Shown: one piece after another, positions 3,768-49,030 of the stretch
Numbering within the stretch: position 1 is the first letter of the stretch
Layout of the letters: each line of letters starts with the position of its first letter
Source of the DNA: Candidatus Dormiibacterota bacterium
GTDB taxonomy: Bacteria; Chloroflexota; Dormibacteria; Dormibacterales; Dormibacteraceae
Assembly: GCA_036378695.1 (NCBI GenBank)
Contig: DASUVY010000046.1
Coordinates: 489 to 64,488, forward strand
Direction of reading: 5' to 3'
Length of the DNA stretch: 64,000 nucleotides
Position numbers and translations under genes: made by a program
Notes under the pieces: model-generated
The model's input: only the letters and a program-made list of their open reading frames with translations
Told to the model about the DNA's origin: nothing
Databases searched by the model: none

Positions 3768-5750
3768 ATGAAAGTACACGAGCTCGCCCGCGAGCTGGAC
3801 GTCAACGCCAAGGAGCTGCAGAACTTCCTGCAGCAGAACCGCCTGCTCTCGAGGAACCCGGCGTCACCGCTGTCGCCGAGGGCCATCGAGGCCGCACGCG
3901 GGCAGTTCGGCGCGCGCGGCGGGGTGGCGGTCAAGGTCGCGCCCAACGGCGAGCGCAAGGTCTCCCTGCCGCCCAACGTGTCGGTGAAGGACCTGGCCGA
4001 GAAGCTGGGCGTCAACGCCGTCGACGTGATCAAGAAGCTGATCTCCAACGGCGTGATGGCCAACATCAACCAGGTCATCGACTTCGGCACGGCCGAGATC
4101 GTGGCCGACGAGTTCGGCTTCACGGTCGAGACCGTGGCCTCCGAGGACCTGGTCGCGACCGAGGCCGAGGGCGAAGTCGTCGTCGCCACCACCCGCGAAG
4201 AGCTCTTCAGCATGGCCAACGAGGACAAGGCCAAGCTCAAGGAGCGGCCGCCGATCGTGACCGTGCTCGGCCACGTCGACCACGGCAAGACCTCCATCCT
4301 GGACGCCATCCGCAAGACGCGGGTGGCGGCGGGCGAGGCCGGCGGCATCACCCAGCGGATCGGCGCCTACAAGATCGAGACCGCCGACGGTGAGCCGGTC
4401 GTCTTCATCGACACCCCCGGCCACGAGGCCTTCACCGCCATGCGCGCGCGCGGCGCCAGCGTGACCGACGTGGCCGTCCTGGTGGTGGCCGCCGACGACG
4501 GCGTGATGCCGCAGACCGTGGAGGCCATCCACCACGCCAAGGCCGCCAGGGTGCCGATCGTGGTCGCCATCAACAAGATCGACAAGGACAACGCCAACGT
4601 CGACCGGGTACACGCCGAGCTGGCCGAGAACGAGATCGTCACCCGCCACTACGGCGGCGACTTCGAGTGCGTCCACGTCTCGGCCAGGACCGGCCAGGGC
4701 CTGGACGACCTGCTGGAGACGATCGTGCTCTCCAGCCAGATCCTGGAGCTGAAGGCCAACCCCGACCGCCACGCGCTGGGCACGGTCGTGGACGCCCACC
4801 TGGAGCGGGGCCGCGGCCCGGTCGCCACCGTGCTGGTCCAGAACGGCACTCTGCGCGTGGGCGACTACTTCGTCTGCGGCCACATCGCGGGTCGCGTGCG
4901 CGCCCTGGCCGACGACCGCGGCGAGGCCGTCAGCGAGGCGCCGCCGGCCACCCCGGTGGTGGTCTCCGGCTTCACCGAGGTCCCCGTGGCGGGCGACATC
5001 TTCCAGGTCGTGGGCTCCGAGAAGGCCGCCCGGGGCATCGCCCTCAGCAAGCTGCAGGAGAAGCGCGCGACCGAGGCCGCCCAGCAGGCGACGCCTCGCA
5101 TCACCCTCGAGGACCTGGCGCGGCGCGCCCTGGAGGGCGAGGTCAAGGAGCTCAACCTGGTGGTCAAGGCCGACGCCCAGGGCGCCCTGGAGGCTGTCGT
5201 GGCCGCCCTCCAGAAGATCGAGGACCCGGTCGTCCAGATCAAGATCGTGGGCTCCGGCGTGGGCGCGCCCAGCGACTCCGACGTCCTGCTGGCCAGCGTC
5301 TCCAACGCGATCATCGTCTGCTTCAACCTGAAGCCCACCCCGGCCGCCGAGCGGGCGGCCGAGAAGGCGCGGGTCGAGGTCCGCTACTACGACGTCATCT
5401 ACAAGCTCACCGAGGACGTGGAGCGCGCGGCCAAGGGTCTGCGCGAGCCCACCTACCGCCAGATCCAGGAGGGCCGCGTCGAGGTAGTGATGCCGATCAA
5501 GATCCCGCGGCTGGGCATCATCGCCGGTTCCCGCGTAGTCGAGGGCAAGGTGTCGCGCGGCGGCTACGCCAAGCTGAGCCGCAACGGCACCCAGATCTGG
5601 GAGGGTCGCATCGCCTCCCTTAAGCACTTCAAGGAGGACGTGCGCGAGATGGTCGCGGGCCAGGAGTGCGGCATCGGTCTGGAGGGCTTCGAGGACTTCC
5701 AGGGCGGGGAGGTCATGGACACCTTCCGCCTCGAACGCGAGGAGATCTAG
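3768..5750 (+). CDS. infB: Translation initiation factor IF-2
   Basis: 660 aa with GTPase motifs ([18 protein letters not shown]) and the IF-2 C-terminal domains. Confidence 0.95.
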
Positions 5751-46241: not shown

Positions 46242-46922
46242 GTGGCGCTGCAGTTGGTCACTCGAGGCGGTTGCCATCTCTGCGAGCAGGCCGAGTCGAT
46301 GCTGGGCGAGCGCGGGGTCGAGTTCGAGGCAGTGGACGTGGACGGTGACGCCGAGCTCTCGCGGCTCTACGACTTCCGGGTGCCGGTGCTGCTCCGCGGA
46401 GGGCGGGTGCTGGCCGAAGGCAAGATCGACGCCGTTGTCCTGGAACGGGTGCTGCCGGCGGTCCAAGCCGCCGGCGCCGAGTCCGCGCGTGAGGTGCACC
46501 GTCTCACGCAGCTGGCGTTCGCCGGCTACGGCTGGCTCACGCCGCCCTCCGGCGCCCTGTCCGAGACCGAGGACGACGTGCGGCGCGATCTCCAGCAGCA
46601 CGGAGGGGCCCTGGCCCGGCTGGACGGCGCCGCGGTCGGTGCCTTGCGCCTGCGCCAAGAGCCCAAGGCGTTGTGGGTGCGGCGGGTGGCGGTCGACCCC
46701 GCCCGCCAGGGCGACGGCGTGGGGCGGGCGTTGATGCGCTGGGCCGAGCGGCAGGCGGCCGCGCACGGGCTGGCGGAAGCGCGCTTGGGAGTTCGGGCGC
46801 AGCTGCCCGGCAACCGGGCCTTCTACGAGCGGCTCGGCTACCGGGTGCTGCGGGCCCACCCCAGGCCCGGGAGCGAAGAGGTGCACTGGCTGGAGATGGG
46901 GAGGTCGATAGCGACGGAGTAG
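46242..46922 (+). CDS. Fusion of a glutaredoxin-like (DUF836-type, CxxC) domain with a GNAT acetyltransferase domain
   Basis: N-terminus LVTRGGCHLCEQA...VDVDGD...VPVL. The C-terminus has the GNAT acetyl-CoA motif RVAVDPARQGDGVGRAL...FYERLGY. Confidence 0.75.
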   Translation: MALQLVTRGGCHLCEQAESMLGERGVEFEAVDVDGDAELSRLYDFRVPVLLRGGRVLAEGKIDAVVLERVLPAVQAAGAESAREVHRLTQLAFAGYGWLTPPSGALSETEDDVRRDLQQHGGALARLDGAAVGALRLRQEPKALWVRRVAVDPARQGDGVGRALMRWAERQAAAHGLAEARLGVRAQLPGNRAFYERLGYRVLRAHPRPGSEEVHWLEMGRSIATE

Positions 46923-46983
46923 GGCTGAGGCCGACCTCTCCACCTCACCAGGTCATGCGCCACATTACAGCACGTTTCATCAC

Positions 46984-47391
46984 GTGTTGTCAAGTGCCGC
47001 ATCGTGGCGTATGGTGGGCGGCGTGGACACGCCGGAAGCTGGCGCGATGCTGGCCGCTCGCACCCGACTGGGGCTGACTCAGCCGGCCTTCGCCGTCGCC
47101 CTGGCCAGCCAACTCGGCAAGCCGGTGGATCGCACGCAGGTCGCCAAGTGGGAGACCGGGGTCTACACGCCCCGGCCCCAGGTGGTCATGGCGGCCGCCC
47201 GGCTGGCGGGCCTGACGCTGCGAGAGCTGATCGCGGAGGGCGCCCAGTTCGACCACCGAGCCCCACGGTCCGGGTCGCGCTCGCGGCGTGCACTCTCCGT
47301 CGATCACCCGCGCGAGCAGCTCAAGGCTTTGCTCGAGTTCGGATTCAGCCTGCCCGAGGCGATCGAGCTGGTCCGGACACACGCTTCCTAA
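46984..47391 (+). CDS. XRE-family helix-turn-helix protein (start may be the GTG at 47023, leaderless)
   Basis: ARTRLGLTQPAFAVALASQLGKPVDRTQVAKWETG HTH. TTGTCA (46987-46992), 17 bp, TATGGT (47010-47015) lies just upstream of the GTG at 47023. Confidence 0.75.
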   Translation: MLSSAASWRMVGGVDTPEAGAMLAARTRLGLTQPAFAVALASQLGKPVDRTQVAKWETGVYTPRPQVVMAAARLAGLTLRELIAEGAQFDHRAPRSGSRSRRALSVDHPREQLKALLEFGFSLPEAIELVRTHAS

Positions 47392-47392
47392 G

Positions 47393-47475
47393 GCGCGACA
47401 GCCCCGTCTGTATACAAACGAGGCCGTCTGGGAAGCGCGACTGCCACCTCTGCACACAAACGTGGCAGTCGGGAC
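47393..47475 (+). repeat. Two tandem 42-nt hairpin repeats with conserved ACAAACG-containing loops (plus a partial third GCGCGAC unit at 47484)
   Basis: Units start at 47393 and 47435 and are about 80 percent identical by hand alignment. Unit 2 has a perfect 9-bp stem, GACTGCCAC/GTGGCAGTC, with a 14-nt loop. Confidence 0.6.
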
Positions 47476-47541
47476 CCATGGCAGCGCGACGGCTCAAAAT
47501 CCGGCTGTGGGAGGTTACGTTCGAGCAGTTGCGCGGAGAGC

Positions 47542-48648
47542 ATGGCGGACGGTGCTGGTCGCTGCGTTGTTGATCCTTGGCGGGGCGCTCCTGATCTTAC
47601 TACCTGGCGTCGCTATACCCAACGCGGTTCGGGCAAGGTCTGTTGGGATGATCGGGGAGGAAATGAGTTCCGGAGCCGGCGCTATAGCCAGAATGCTCTC
47701 GATAATCGCCGGAGTTCGTTCGTAACCGAGGTCTTGCGCGCGGGAGTAGGCGGACGCTTAGCGGAGGGGTCGAGCGCGCCTCTGGCGAGCAGGCGGAACG
47801 AACAGATGGGCGGCTGGAAGGGGTGCCTTGGTGGGGCCCCGCCACCGGCCCGCCAGCCGGTCCTCCCTGGCGGTGTTGAGGCGCAGCGGGACCCCGTAGC
47901 TAGTCCGCGACTACGAAGCGCGCCGTCCTTGTCTAGAGGCACATATTGGGGGCGTTGGGAATGTGCCTCGTATTGCGCCGAACAGTGTGAGGCGCTGTCT
48001 GCAAACGCTGAGCCGCGCCTAACGGTCGGTAGTGGGTCGGACATTGGCTTGCAAGCGACCTTGGAGCGGCTCTGGCCGTCAAGGGCCCCGGCGGCGGGCT
48101 CCCTCCTGCCCGCCACCTTCGGACCTGACCCCGGGGCCCACGAGTCGCCGCAGGCGGCGAGGGGTGGGGAGCTGGCCAGCTCGGACAGTGCCGGAGCCGT
48201 GGCTCCGGCGGGCGCGCTAGCGCCCAAGCCGCGTAAAGGTCGCCGTCGTTGCTGTCAGTACTGTTCAGGCGTTATCGAGAAGGGTGATGCGACTACTGGC
48301 TACCTGTATCACTCGGCTTGTTGGCAGGCTGCGGCCGAGCGTAGAGCGCCAGCTCTAGCCGAGGTCCGCGCTCAGGTTGAGAGTACTAACGCTGTGGCGG
48401 CCTACCTGGTCGCGCAGACACAAAATCGGCTACCGTCGCTGCTGGTGCCGTCAAGAGCAAGCCTCACGGTAAGCAGCGCAAAGTCTGGCGCGGCTCCTGA
48501 CGCCAGTCAGATTACTCGTGTCGGTACTGATGCGTGGCGCGGAGCGCCCGCTGCCCAGGGAGGAGGCACGGGTTCCAACAGAGTTGGAACGCCGATCAGT
48601 ACCGATGCTGTTGATAATCGCCGTTTAGGAAAGCACCAAGCCGGTTAG
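47542..48648 (+). CDS. Orphan ORF with Cys-rich motifs, atypical codon usage (internal ATG at 47806 may be the real start)
   Basis: A 368-codon open frame in a segment visibly less GC-rich than its neighbours. Codon first positions are G-rich. Contains C-x3-C-x3-C and a basic stretch followed by CCQYC-x17-HSAC. Confidence 0.35.
   Translation: MADGAGRCVVDPWRGAPDLTTWRRYTQRGSGKVCWDDRGGNEFRSRRYSQNALDNRRSSFVTEVLRAGVGGRLAEGSSAPLASRRNEQMGGWKGCLGGAPPPARQPVLPGGVEAQRDPVASPRLRSAPSLSRGTYWGRWECASYCAEQCEALSANAEPRLTVGSGSDIGLQATLERLWPSRAPAAGSLLPATFGPDPGAHESPQAARGGELASSDSAGAVAPAGALAPKPRKGRRRCCQYCSGVIEKGDATTGYLYHSACWQAAAERRAPALAEVRAQVESTNAVAAYLVAQTQNRLPSLLVPSRASLTVSSAKSGAAPDASQITRVGTDAWRGAPAAQGGGTGSNRVGTPISTDAVDNRRLGKHQAG
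47552..47725 (+). CDS. Possible small hydrophobic protein (57 aa), very uncertain
   Basis: A GTG-started frame encodes VLVAALLILGGALLILLPGVAIP... with one clear TM segment. It overlaps the 47542 ORF in another frame and has no clear SD. Confidence 0.25.
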   Translation: MLVAALLILGGALLILLPGVAIPNAVRARSVGMIGEEMSSGAGAIARMLSIIAGVRS

Positions 48649-48649
48649 G

Positions 48650-49030
48650 TTAGGCTGCCACCAGCTCGGCCGGAGCCTCCTCCAGGCCGCGCAGGAACAG
48701 CGAGAGCGGCAGCGCCGCGTCCTGGAAGCGCTGGTGCAGCCAGGACCGGTCGGCCGCCGGGCGCGCCAGCTCGGCCACAACCGACTCCAGGACGCGCAGC
48801 GTGCGCTCGACATGACGGTCCAGGACCGCGGCGCCGCCATCCAGGGCCGGTCGGCCGCCCGCCAGGTCGTCGCGCCAGGAGCCGCGCACGTCGGCCACCA
48901 GCTGCGCCAGACGGGCCCGGGCCGCCAGGGCCAGTTCGCCGTCGGCCGGCTCGGCCGCCAGGCGCTCCAGGTACTCGGCCTCCAGGCGGATCAGCCGCCG
49001 CAGCCGCATCTGCGTGGTCAGCGTACGCAT
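48650..49030 (-). CDS. Hypothetical helical protein (126 aa), candidate SOS regulon member
   Basis: ATG start, Arg/Leu/Ala/Glu-rich sequence with predicted helical character and no recognisable motif. A LexA-box promoter lies immediately upstream. Confidence 0.6.
   Translation of the reverse strand: MRTLTTQMRLRRLIRLEAEYLERLAAEPADGELALAARARLAQLVADVRGSWRDDLAGGRPALDGGAAVLDRHVERTLRVLESVVAELARPAADRSWLHQRFQDAALPLSLFLRGLEEAPAELVAA

What the first reader, a model, noticed from the sequence alone, without database searches (positions are those of the whole stretch)
46923..48650. Compositionally atypical patch next to lexA: XRE gene, hairpin repeats, small hydrophobic ORF, Cys-rich orphan
Between the Grx-GNAT gene and the SOS-box gene the sequence is visibly less GC-rich. 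Its codons end in A or T much more often than in the flanking housekeeping genes.

The patch starts with an XRE HTH gene that has its own promoter-like TTGTCA-17-TATGGT. It contains nothing I can assign to a known family, and I see no integrase, tRNA or clear terminal repeats.

This looks like horizontally acquired material, such as a degraded prophage, an integrative element or an accessory module. It is lodged in the lexA neighbourhood and is the least explained 1.7 kb of the window.
Basis: seen in the sequence. Interest (0 to 1): 0.6.

Follow-up and report, generated by a model that had tools for sequence, protein, structure and literature searches.

The report
Small insert at a dif-like site
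The odd 1.7 kb next to lexA in this soil Dormibacterota genome is a mosaic: a long-resident XRE regulator gene, a copy of a genome-wide palindromic repeat, and a 0.9-kb foreign-looking insert with no recombinase gene, bracketed by two copies of a single-copy, dif-like site conserved across the family.

Summary
Only 47392-48649 is atypical: 64.9% GC against 70.3%, tetranucleotide z +3.2, ORF GC3 0.55-0.63 against a genome mean of 0.89. The XRE gene has native composition and sits in the same place in a sister species.

The block is not conserved across the lineage. One congener joins the Grx-GNAT gene to the SOS-box gene across 127 bp, and several other genera in the family have a similarly short gap of 95-175 bp.

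Three unrelated things make up the patch:
- **XRE gene:** probably leaderless.
- **"Hairpin repeats":** a degenerate copy of a dispersed TGTATACA palindrome doublet.
- **A 912-bp unit:** bounded by 19-nt direct repeats at 47693 and 48605.

The right repeat belongs to a 32-nt motif that is single-copy per genome, found in 24 of 37 genera, and always beside the SOS-box gene. It is built like a dif or att core (arm, 6 nt, arm). The left repeat keeps one arm plus the centre only.

The unit carries one stop-free ORF that ends in a new C2HC zinc-finger-plus-helix domain. It occurs in 6 of 159 family genomes and always lies at that motif.

My best reading (about 0.45) is an integrative element without its own integrase, moved by a host Xer-like recombinase. 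Whether the motif is the true dif could not be tested.

The parts
46923..46965 (.). Spacer after the Grx-GNAT stop. It is shared with both sister species and marks the left edge of the G000-specific block.
   Evidence: The alignment with G001 and G002 shows homology up to about 46965. After that point G001 runs straight into the conserved motif.
46966..47022 (+). Upstream region of the XRE gene. It holds a CACGTTTCATCAC box, also present in G002, and the promoter-like TTGTCA-17-TATGGT. The -10 element ends 7 nt before the in-frame GTG at 47023, so the mRNA is probably leaderless.
   Evidence: The promoter scan finds the site. G002 has TATTGT followed 6 nt later by ATG. The leaderless reading is an inference.
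47014..47391 (+). XRE-family helix-turn-helix regulator gene. The start is GTG at 47014 or 47023. Its composition is native.
   Evidence: Pfam HTH_3 matches at E 5.5e-7. GC3 is 0.86 and tetranucleotide z is -1.0. An orthologue with 64% identity sits at the same place in G002. The last ~40 nt match the antisense 3' end of a membrane-protein gene in L031.
47393..47480 (.). The 'hairpin repeats'. This is a degenerate copy of a dispersed doublet of palindromic boxes with consensus CCGTTTGTATACAAACGG, set 42-43 bp apart. Box 1 is CGTCTGTATACAAACG and box 2 is CTCTGCACACAAACG.
   Evidence: The genome has 69 TGTATACA sites, most of them in pairs directly after stop codons. There are 51 hits in G000, 38 in G004, 14 in G010 and none in G001 or G002. 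Inverted repeats I1 and I6 were also reported.
47552..47725 (+). Small hydrophobic ORF of 57 codons from GTG 47552, not supported as a gene. Its last 10 codons are simply the left motif copy read in one frame (MLSIIAGVRS).
   Evidence: GC3 is 0.62. There is no family hit, no homologous ORF in L031 and no relative found by tblastn.
47691..47711 (+). Left (L) copy of the motif. It keeps the left arm plus the 6-nt centre (AATGCTCTCGATAA TCGCCG), followed by an unrelated right side.
   Evidence: Direct repeat D3. Alignment of L and R copies from 7 genomes. L and R cores match better within a genome than between genomes, 4 of 5040 permutations.
47712..48602 (+). Body of the 912-bp unit. It is non-native in composition. 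In the family search it was found in 6 of 159 genomes.
47542..48648 (+). Stop-free frame of 368 codons. More likely starts are TTG 47734 or ATG 47806, both just after the L copy.
   Evidence: This frame has 0 stops, against 8-22 in the other five frames. The same holds in L031 and L041. In-frame starts are listed.
47923..47947 (+). Nucleotide-level conserved block CCGTCCTTGTCTAGAGGCACATATT.
   Evidence: It is identical in L031 but read there in another frame. The core CCTTGTnnnnAGGC is present in L041, L042, L044 and L045 with invariant A/T at third codon positions.
47915..48250 (+). Region with a conserved fold shared with L031. It includes the helix GCGACCTT (48055) / AAGGTCGC (48236), which shows four double compensatory changes.
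   Evidence: Consensus-fold z is -4.9 (+ strand) and -7.3 (- strand) against column shuffles, while coding controls give -1.1 to +1.5. Helices are listed and inverted repeat I2.
48244..48470 (+). Conserved protein domain: a basic stretch, a C-x2-C-x16-H-x2-C zinc knuckle, and a long helix ending in LPSLLVP.
   Evidence: phmmer against 1.8 billion representatives finds P0002-P0010 (E 1.6e-32 to 4.4e-4), aligned. Codon-position substitution pattern is 0.22/0.22/0.36, like the neighbouring SOS-box gene. The AF2 model has pLDDT 71-91 over residues 11-80. There is no match in PDB.
48603..48634 (+). Right (R), complete copy of the motif: GATGCTGTTGATAA TCGCCG TTTAGGAAAGCA. It is single-copy and conserved across the family, with a dif-like layout.
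   Evidence: It is unique in G000. It is aligned in 11 genomes. The pattern gives exactly one hit in 45 of 46 matching genomes from 24 genera, with 1 control hit in total.
48650..49030 (-). LexA-box gene of 126 aa, the right neighbour. It always lies next to the motif.
   Evidence: Found in 25 of 41 relatives. The box CGAACAGGCGTTCG is visible in the sequence. The model is a four-helix bundle with pLDDT 88.6 and only generic bundle matches.

Best explanation
The interval is a mosaic lodged in a recombination hotspot between the Grx-GNAT gene and a LexA-controlled gene.

**Shown: XRE gene.** It is an older resident of the locus. It has native composition, is shared with one sister species and is deleted in the other.

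**Shown: hairpins.** They are one copy of a dispersed palindrome doublet that has spread in this genome but not in its congeners.

**Shown: the 912-bp unit.** It spans 47693 to 48604.
- It has foreign composition.
- It is bounded by direct repeats.
- It carries a single stop-free ORF that ends in a novel zinc-finger-plus-helix domain.

**Shown: the site.**
- The right repeat is part of a 32-nt site that is single-copy per genome and conserved across the family.
- The site is built as an 11-nt arm ending in ATAA, a 6-nt centre, and a second arm starting TTTA, TTAT or CTAT.
- The left repeat keeps only the first arm and the centre.

**Inferred mechanism.**
- The 32-nt site is the core site of a host tyrosine recombinase: the lineage's dif, or an att site used in the same way.
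- The unit entered as a circle carrying a mimic of one arm plus the centre.
- A host Xer-like enzyme integrated it, as with elements that exploit Xer (IMEX).
- Integration left a hybrid site on the left and an intact site on the right, next to the LexA-controlled gene.
- Recombination between the two copies removes the unit cleanly. That would explain genomes with a single intact site.

**Open.** The role of the encoded protein is unknown. Candidate roles are binding the site or helping the recombinase.
For: **Site properties.**
- It is single-copy, with 1 hit in 45 of 46 matching genomes against 1 control hit in total.
- It is unique in G000.
- It is conserved in register in 11 genomes from 10 genera, next to the same gene.
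- It has arm-centre-arm architecture with ATAA-N6-TTAT in L041, L042 and L043.
- This matches the textbook dif layout of two 11-bp half-sites with partial dyad symmetry and a 6-bp centre (PMC5357621).

**Repeat behaviour.**
- L and R copies share one arm plus the centre and differ in the other arm. Identity is 0.82 for the core and 0.28 for the other arm.
- The cores co-vary within genomes (4 of 5040 permutations).
- IMEX att sites are described in the same way: GGI and TLC-phi have the XerC arm and centre homologous and the XerD arm divergent (PMC5357621).
- A dif site has been discovered before through an integrated element (PMC9765430).

**Element properties.**
- No tyrosine recombinase gene in the unit.
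- Xer-like recombinases are encoded elsewhere in the genome. The one on C132 scores 226 bits to XerC.
- No canonical dif is present in the 97.7%-complete assembly.
- Distribution is patchy, 6 of 159 genomes in 5 of 37 genera, and always at the motif.
- It lies at the same site in metagenome contigs L031 and L041-L048.
- L031 carries a tandem array of four motif copies.
- Sister species have empty sites with one intact motif.
- Composition is non-native.
Against: **The site as dif.** Its position relative to the replication terminus could not be tested.
- GC skew in this genome is too weak: contig means are +/-0.015 or less, with sd 0.02 per 5 kb.
- Gene orientation converges at the motif but turns again 10 kb further on.

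**Mobility.**
- No circular form, empty-site read or recent transfer was seen.
- The G000 and L031 copies are as diverged as the flanking host genes (71% against 73% nucleotide identity).
- That fits long vertical residence with repeated loss as well as it fits mobility.

**Features this model does not predict.**
- All nine distances between motif copies are multiples of 3.
- The motif contains a conserved ATG or TTG and can be read as a short peptide, MLSIITV.
- In contig L047 the zinc-finger gene stands alone, with a Shine-Dalgarno sequence and a single motif.

**Recombinases.** The Xer-like proteins score below NCBIfam's equivalog cut-offs.
Confidence: 0.45

Rival explanations
1. Resident locus-specific gene. 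The zinc-finger ORF is an ordinary, vertically inherited but often lost chromosomal gene. The repeated motif is a regulatory or translated element that happens to occur at both ends of the gene and beside the LexA-controlled gene. It could be a promoter -10 GATAAT with an operator, or a short leader peptide MLSIITV.
For: - The element is always in the same syntenic slot.
- Its divergence is similar to that of the host genes.
- The motif carries ATG or TTG in most copies. Its variable positions fall on third codon positions of the MLSIITV frame.
- All spacings between motif copies are multiples of 3.
- In L041, L042, L044 and L045 the ORF runs in frame from the left to the right copy.
- L047 has a stand-alone 96-aa gene with a Shine-Dalgarno sequence and one motif.
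Against: - GC3 of 0.55-0.68 in genomes with GC3 near 0.9 is hard to keep in a resident gene.
- The motif is read in two different frames in different lineages, so its conservation is not at protein level.
- There is no reason for two regulatory copies to co-vary within a genome.
- No -35 element is conserved.
- Presence in 4% of species would need dozens of precise losses.
Confidence: 0.25
2. Structured non-coding RNA. The 0.9-kb unit, or at least 47915-48250, is a large RNA gene or a long structured leader. On this view the open frame is secondary.
For: - The consensus fold with L031 gives z -4.9 and -7.3 against column shuffles, while coding controls give -1.1 to +1.5.
- One helix has four double compensatory changes and further hairpins are compensated.
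- A 25-nt block is identical but read in different frames in G000 and L031.
- There is no codon-position pattern of substitutions in the 5' half.
- GC is lower than in the genome, as with other RNA genes in GC-rich genomes.
Against: - No Rfam match even at E 5.
- The single-sequence fold z is only -1.7 and -2.5.
- The hairpin beside the conserved block is not kept in L041-L045.
- One frame has 0 stops against 8-28 in the others in three lineages.
- The 3' half behaves like coding sequence and has protein-level relatives.
- Only two sequences support the covariation.
Confidence: 0.12
3. Decaying remnant. On this view the region is a degraded prophage or dead DNA left by old insertions, with no present function.
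For: - Atypical composition with no family hits.
- The site is variable between relatives.
- In L031 a phage-tail-tube-like gene (Phage_T4_gp19) lies nearby.
Against: - The frame is kept open for 1.1-1.9 kb in several lineages.
- The domain is conserved with invariant C, C, H, C and W residues.
- Nucleotide blocks of 19-33 nt are identical at 71% overall identity.
- Both repeat copies are maintained and co-vary.
- There is no phage gene in the window's patch.
Confidence: 0.08

Closest known systems
IMEX (integrative mobile elements exploiting Xer), e.g. TLC-phi and VGJ-phi of Vibrio cholerae, the gonococcal genetic island, and LME-1 of Legionella
   Same: - No integrase of its own.
- Sits at a single-copy, conserved core site with an arm, a 6-nt centre and a second arm.
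- Flanked by a full site and a copy that shares one arm plus the centre but has a divergent second arm.
- Tandem arrays occur.
- Distribution is patchy, with clean empty sites in relatives.
- A dif site has been recognised through an integrated element before (PMC9765430).
   Different: - It is not shown that the site is dif or lies at the terminus.
- The site has only partial sequence likeness to known dif sites: ATAA-N6-TTAT in some lineages and TTTA in G000.
- At 0.65-1.4 kb with one ORF, the element is far smaller than phage or island IMEXs.
- It has no replication or morphogenesis genes.
- The copies look old rather than recently moved.
- The lengths that are multiples of 3 have no counterpart in IMEXs.
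CIME (cis-mobilisable elements: att-flanked units without recombination genes, as described beside ICESt1 of Streptococcus thermophilus; named from my own knowledge)
   Same: - A short unit bounded by att-like direct repeats.
- No recombinase gene.
- Can accrete in tandem at one att site.
   Different: - No partner ICE or integrase that uses this site was found.
- The site is not in a tRNA or a gene end.
- The site is conserved in genomes that lack any element.
REP / REPIN dispersed palindromes (for the hairpin repeats only)
   Same: - Short extragenic palindromes.
- Found in inverted doublets about 43 bp apart.
- Tens of copies, usually directly after stop codons.
- Abundant in some lineages and absent in close relatives.
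   Different: - No RAYT (Y1_Tnp) transposase in the genome.
- The AT-rich core TGTATACA is unlike the GTAG/CGTC-tagged REP classes.
- Each box is itself a perfect palindrome.
XRE/cI-type repressors with leaderless mRNA (for the XRE gene only)
   Same: - HTH_3 domain.
- The -10 element is placed 6-7 nt before the start codon in both species.
- Weak matches to phage repressor families.
   Different: - No partner gene such as a toxin, Cro or integrase.
- Native composition.
- The target is unknown.

Membership tests
IMEX (element exploiting Xer at dif) | The attachment site is the chromosomal dif: single-copy, conserved, with two ~11-bp arms and a 6-8-bp centre | tested here: inconclusive
   Single copy and conservation are met. 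The architecture is met. No other dif-like site exists in the assembly. Identity with dif itself is not shown.
IMEX (element exploiting Xer at dif) | The site lies at the replication terminus | not testable with these tools
   GC skew is too weak and the contigs are too short. Gene orientation is ambiguous.
IMEX (element exploiting Xer at dif) | The element encodes no integrase | tested here: met
   No Pfam, NCBIfam or PHROG recombinase hit in any ORF of 46923-48650. All PF00589 (tyrosine recombinase) hits lie on other contigs.
IMEX (element exploiting Xer at dif) | Flanked by a dif site and a dif-like site that share one arm plus the centre, with the other arm divergent | tested here: met
   The definition is taken from PMC5357621.
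IMEX (element exploiting Xer at dif) | The host has Xer recombinase(s) that act on the site | tested here: inconclusive
   Xer-like tyrosine recombinases are present but score below the equivalog cut-offs (226 against 335 bits). Activity on the site was not tested.
Degraded prophage | Remains of phage structural, replication or lysis genes, or an integrase | tested here: not met
   The PHROGs scan of seven ORFs on both strands returns only weak repressor-type HTH hits for the XRE protein.
Integron cassette array | attC sites with RYYYAAC / GTTRRRY cores and an IntI integrase next to attI | tested here: not met
   The motif lacks the attC cores (read). The neighbouring LexA-controlled gene encodes a 126-aa four-helix bundle, not a recombinase.
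XRE-family HTH regulator | HTH_3 domain above Pfam's cut-off | tested here: met
   30 bits against a cut-off of 23.
REP/REPIN | Dispersed extragenic palindromes in inverted doublets | tested here: met
REP/REPIN | A cognate RAYT (Y1 transposase) in the genome | tested here: not met
   PF01797 gives no hit in G000, while the control genomes ring.
Type I toxin (small hydrophobic ORF 47552-47725) | A conserved small hydrophobic peptide gene with an overlapping antisense RNA | tested here: inconclusive
   No conservation in the one alignable relative, no family hit and GC3 of 0.62.
Any Rfam RNA family | Covariance-model match | tested here: not met
   Nothing at the gathering threshold in the window. 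Only two chance-level miRNA hits at E 0.4-3.9.

The most novel reading that the evidence does not exclude
The 32-nt motif is the so far unrecognised dif site of this Dormibacterota family. The 0.65-1.4-kb zinc-finger units would then be the smallest Xer-exploiting elements known. They would be single-gene hitchhikers whose only protein, a new C2HC finger with a long helix, recruits or activates the host recombinase. The neighbouring LexA-controlled four-helix protein would link the site to the SOS response.
Probability: 0.22. Interest if true: 0.75.

Novelty: new variant of a known kind. Interest (0 to 1): 0.55.

Why it matters
**Chromosome biology of an uncultured phylum.** If the motif is a recombinase core site, it gives a first handle on chromosome dimer resolution, or on site-specific integration, in a phylum with no cultured members. 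A conserved 32-nt sequence could then be used to orient and finish assemblies.

**A minimal element.** The unit would be a one-gene integrative element. It could be tested in E. coli with cloned sites and recombinases.

**Annotation.**
- The long ORF calls in public assemblies (368-638 aa) are at least partly artefacts of a stop-free frame laid over nucleotide-level signals.
- The 'hairpin repeats' belong to a dispersed repeat family, not to the XRE gene.
- A low-GC patch in a GC-rich genome can be a mosaic of unrelated pieces.

Tried and rejected
**Family and RNA searches.**
- Rfam, both thresholds: nothing.
- tRNA or tmRNA as an integration target: none.
- Pfam, PHROGs, PADLOC and NCBIfam on ORFs of both strands: only the HTH.

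**DNA homology.**
- 40 relatives, the own genome and 159 family genomes: only the 30-nt motif recurs.
- A genome-contig scan with the 25-nt block found nothing.
- The genome-contig scan with the SOS-box protein found nothing.
- The viral-contig scan found nothing.
- The one metagenome scan returned only the contig already known.

**Protein homology.**
- Word-based searches found one homologue for the 368-aa query and none for the 150-aa query.
- Only the exhaustive phmmer run found the family.

**Structure.**
- The zinc-finger model has pLDDT 59. Foldseek gave only generic zinc knuckles at E above 1.
- The PDB sequence profile search found nothing.

**Ideas tested and dropped.**
- *Canonical dif:* none in G000 within 7 mismatches of the E. 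coli or B. subtilis sites.
- *Terminus placement by GC skew:* uninformative.
- *Remnant of the neighbouring membrane-protein gene:* only its last 16 codons survive, on the antisense strand of the XRE gene's end.
- *Conserved RNA hairpin beside the conserved block:* not kept across seven lineages.

**Considered from the sequences and rejected.**
- DnaA box, Fur box, DtxR box, rolling-circle nick site and integron attC as identities of the motif. Each matches at most half of it.
- TnpB or a large serine recombinase as the identity of the ORF. There are no domain hits.

No reads could be laid to look for transcripts, circles or empty sites.


Full report
**Setting.** The window is part of contig C46 of a 3.41-Mb, 185-contig assembly with 70.3% GC. 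Earlier notes of this scan place it in a soil member of the phylum Dormibacterota; I did not check that. The local gene order is:
- hflX, an aminotransferase and dapD
- lexA (minus strand)
- a LysM gene
- a glutaredoxin-GNAT fusion (46242-46922)
- the finding (46923-48650)
- a 126-aa gene on the minus strand behind a perfect LexA box
- a methyltransferase, TetR and an acyl-CoA dehydrogenase

**Composition.** The whole interval is only mildly low in GC: 66.0%, z -1.6, 5.5th percentile. The signal is uneven.
- *XRE gene:* ordinary, with GC 71.7%, GC3 0.86 and tetranucleotide z -1.0.
- *47392-48649:* clearly odd.
  - GC is 64.9% and tetranucleotide z is +3.2.
  - No codon phase reaches the GC3 of real genes.
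  - ORFs there have GC3 0.55-0.63. The 1478 long ORFs of the genome have 0.89 +/- 0.05.

**Synteny.**
- The 126-aa LexA-box gene is found throughout the family (25 of 41 relatives).
- In four genera it lies 95-175 bp from a short glutaredoxin gene, tail to tail. In others the gap is 0.4-12.7 kb and holds unrelated genes.
- *Sister species G001:* it has a 127-bp gap. Its spacer matches G000 up to about 46965 and then runs straight into the motif at 48603.
- *Sister species G002:* it has the XRE gene (64% identity) at the same place. A membrane-protein gene and a small ORF follow, and nothing resembles 47392-48600.

The block is therefore accessory, with boundaries near 46965 and 48600, and the site is a hotspot. 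The XRE gene was probably in the ancestor of the genus and lost in G001.

**The XRE gene.** It has an HTH_3 domain. The promoter-like TTGTCA-17-TATGGT is real as a pattern. Its -10 ends 7 nt before the in-frame GTG at 47023. G002 has TATTGT followed 6 nt later by ATG. This suggests a leaderless mRNA, which is an inference. A CACGTTTC(A/G)TCAC box upstream is shared by both species. The last ~40 nt of the gene match the antisense 3' end of a membrane-protein gene that sits there in contig L031 and in G002. That gene has been lost in G000.

**The hairpin repeats.**
- TGTATACAAACG occurs 69 times in the genome.
- The 69 TGTATACA sites are mostly pairs of CCGTTTGTATACAAACGG boxes 42-43 bp apart, directly after stop codons.
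- The copy at 47393-47480 is a degenerate doublet placed right after the XRE stop.
- The repeat is abundant in G000 (51 hits), G004 (38) and G010 (14), and absent from both congeners.
- The genome has no Y1 transposase.

So it is a REPIN-like dispersed element and unrelated to the rest of the patch.

**The 1.1 kb to the right.**
- *Homologue.* The 368-codon ORF has one homologue among 5.8 billion clustered proteins. It is a 551-aa ORF on contig WNGE01011375.1 (L031), which has the same neighbourhood.
- *DNA match.* 47923-48530 matches L031 at 71% identity. Identical blocks of 19-33 nt are separated by poorly conserved stretches.
- *5' half (47915-48250).*
  - It shows no codon-position pattern of substitutions.
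  - It contains an identical 25-nt block read in different frames in the two genomes.
  - Its consensus fold is far better than column-shuffled controls (z -4.9 and -7.3). Coding controls gave -1.1 to +1.5.
  - One helix has four double compensatory changes.
- *3' half.* It behaves like coding sequence. Substitutions by codon position are 0.22/0.22/0.36, similar to the neighbouring gene.
- *Exhaustive phmmer search.* It found eight more relatives of an ~85-aa domain. The domain has a basic stretch, C-x2-C-x16-H-x2-C and a long helix ending in LPSLLVP.
- *Known relatives.* The domain has none in Pfam, PDB sequences or PDB folds.
- *Stop codons.* The ORF frame has no stops in G000, L031 and L041. 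The other five frames have 8-28.

Coding and nucleotide-level constraints seem to be superimposed. I cannot fully resolve this.

**The motif.**
- *Conservation.* A 32-nt sequence at 48603-48634 (GATGCTGTTGATAATCGCCGTTTAGGAAAGCA) is conserved downstream of the LexA-box gene in 11 genomes of 10 genera.
- *Copy number.* It is unique in G000. A pattern of 14 fixed bases hits exactly once in 45 of 46 matching family genomes, with one control hit in total.
- *Layout.* It reads as an arm ending in ATAA, six bases, and a second arm starting TTTA, TTAT or CTAT. This is the layout of dif and related core sites (PMC5357621).
- *Second copy in G000.* A copy of the first arm plus the centre lies at 47693-47711, 912 bp to the left in direct orientation.
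- *Other carriers.* Every other locus with the zinc-finger ORF has the same arrangement. L031 has four copies.
- *Co-variation.*
  - Left and right cores are more alike within a genome than between genomes (0.82 against 0.70; 4 of 5040 permutations).
  - The second arms are unrelated (0.28).
- *Distribution.* The zinc-finger unit is present in 6 of 159 family genomes, in 5 of 37 genera, always at the motif.
- *Recombinases.*
  - The unit encodes no tyrosine recombinase.
  - Xer-like tyrosine recombinases lie elsewhere in the genome.
  - No canonical dif is present.

**Reading.** These features match what is described for elements that exploit Xer: a full site on one side, a hybrid site sharing one arm and the centre on the other, no integrase, tandem arrays and clean empty sites (PMC5357621). 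A dif site has been found this way before (PMC9765430). I therefore favour an integrase-less integrative element at a dif-like site, at about 0.45.

**Weak points.**
- Terminus location cannot be tested, because skew is too weak.
- The copies are as diverged as the host genes.
- All nine inter-motif distances are multiples of 3. The model does not explain this.
- The motif contains a start codon and can be read as MLSIITV.
- One contig has the zinc-finger gene alone with one motif.

A resident gene with a repeated regulatory motif (0.25), a structured RNA (0.12) and dead DNA (0.08) remain as rivals.

**Other pieces.**
- The small hydrophobic ORF (47552-47725) has no support. Its GC3 is 0.62, it has no relatives, and its end is just the left motif copy read in one frame.
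- The LexA-box gene product folds as a confident four-helix bundle with no informative match.

**Limits.** Most loci from relatives could not be loaded into the Python box, so some comparisons rest on the alignment tools alone.

Noticed in passing
genome-wide; in the window at 47393-47480 (a lone TGTATACA inside a gene is at about 36452): A dispersed doublet of perfect palindromes, CCGTTTGTATACAAACGG x2 set 42-43 bp apart. The genome has 69 TGTATACA sites, mostly in such pairs and almost always directly after a stop codon. The element is abundant in G000, G004 and G010 and absent from the two congeners. The genome has no RAYT transposase.
   Followed up: partly
48603-48634: A 32-nt motif that is single-copy per genome and conserved in at least 24 genera of the family. 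It is always next to the 3' end of the LexA-box gene and is a candidate dif or att core.
   Followed up: yes
window 47701/48613; L031 2336/2576/2864/3809; L041 709/2143; L042 210/1344; L044 3333/4485; L045 4922/6053; L046 668/1316: All nine distances between successive motif copies are multiples of 3. This holds even where the left copy is outside the ORF, and although the motif is read in two different frames in different lineages. I have no explanation.
   Followed up: partly
48650-49030 (minus strand): The LexA-box gene product is predicted with high confidence (pLDDT 88.6) as a four-helix bundle. It has only generic bundle matches. It is conserved family-wide and always adjoins the motif.
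   Followed up: partly
L031 3885-6537: In contig WNGE01011375.1 a 361-aa Phage_T4_gp19 (tail-tube-like) gene and a 501-aa methyltransferase are inserted between the motif and the LexA-box gene. This is the opposite side of the motif from all other inserts.
   Followed up: no
L024 (G002) 4865-5624: In the sister species the XRE gene and a convergent four-transmembrane-helix gene overlap by about 70 nt at their 3' ends. G000 keeps only the last ~16 codons of that gene, on the antisense strand of the XRE gene's end.
   Followed up: partly
47010-47025: The XRE gene appears to be leaderless. The -10-like TATGGT ends 7 nt before the in-frame GTG at 47023, and G002 has TATTGT followed 6 nt later by ATG.
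   Followed up: partly
genome contigs C63:45931-52230, C31:14161-19020, C5:8800-21600, C110:10921-13320: These are other long stretches without third-position GC periodicity. They may be rRNA operons or further foreign islands. I did not examine them.
   Followed up: no
47806: The in-frame ATG at 47806 is preceded by CGAACAG, which is half a LexA box. This was also flagged by another first-stage note. It lies just inside the unit and is one of the plausible real starts of the ORF.
   Followed up: no
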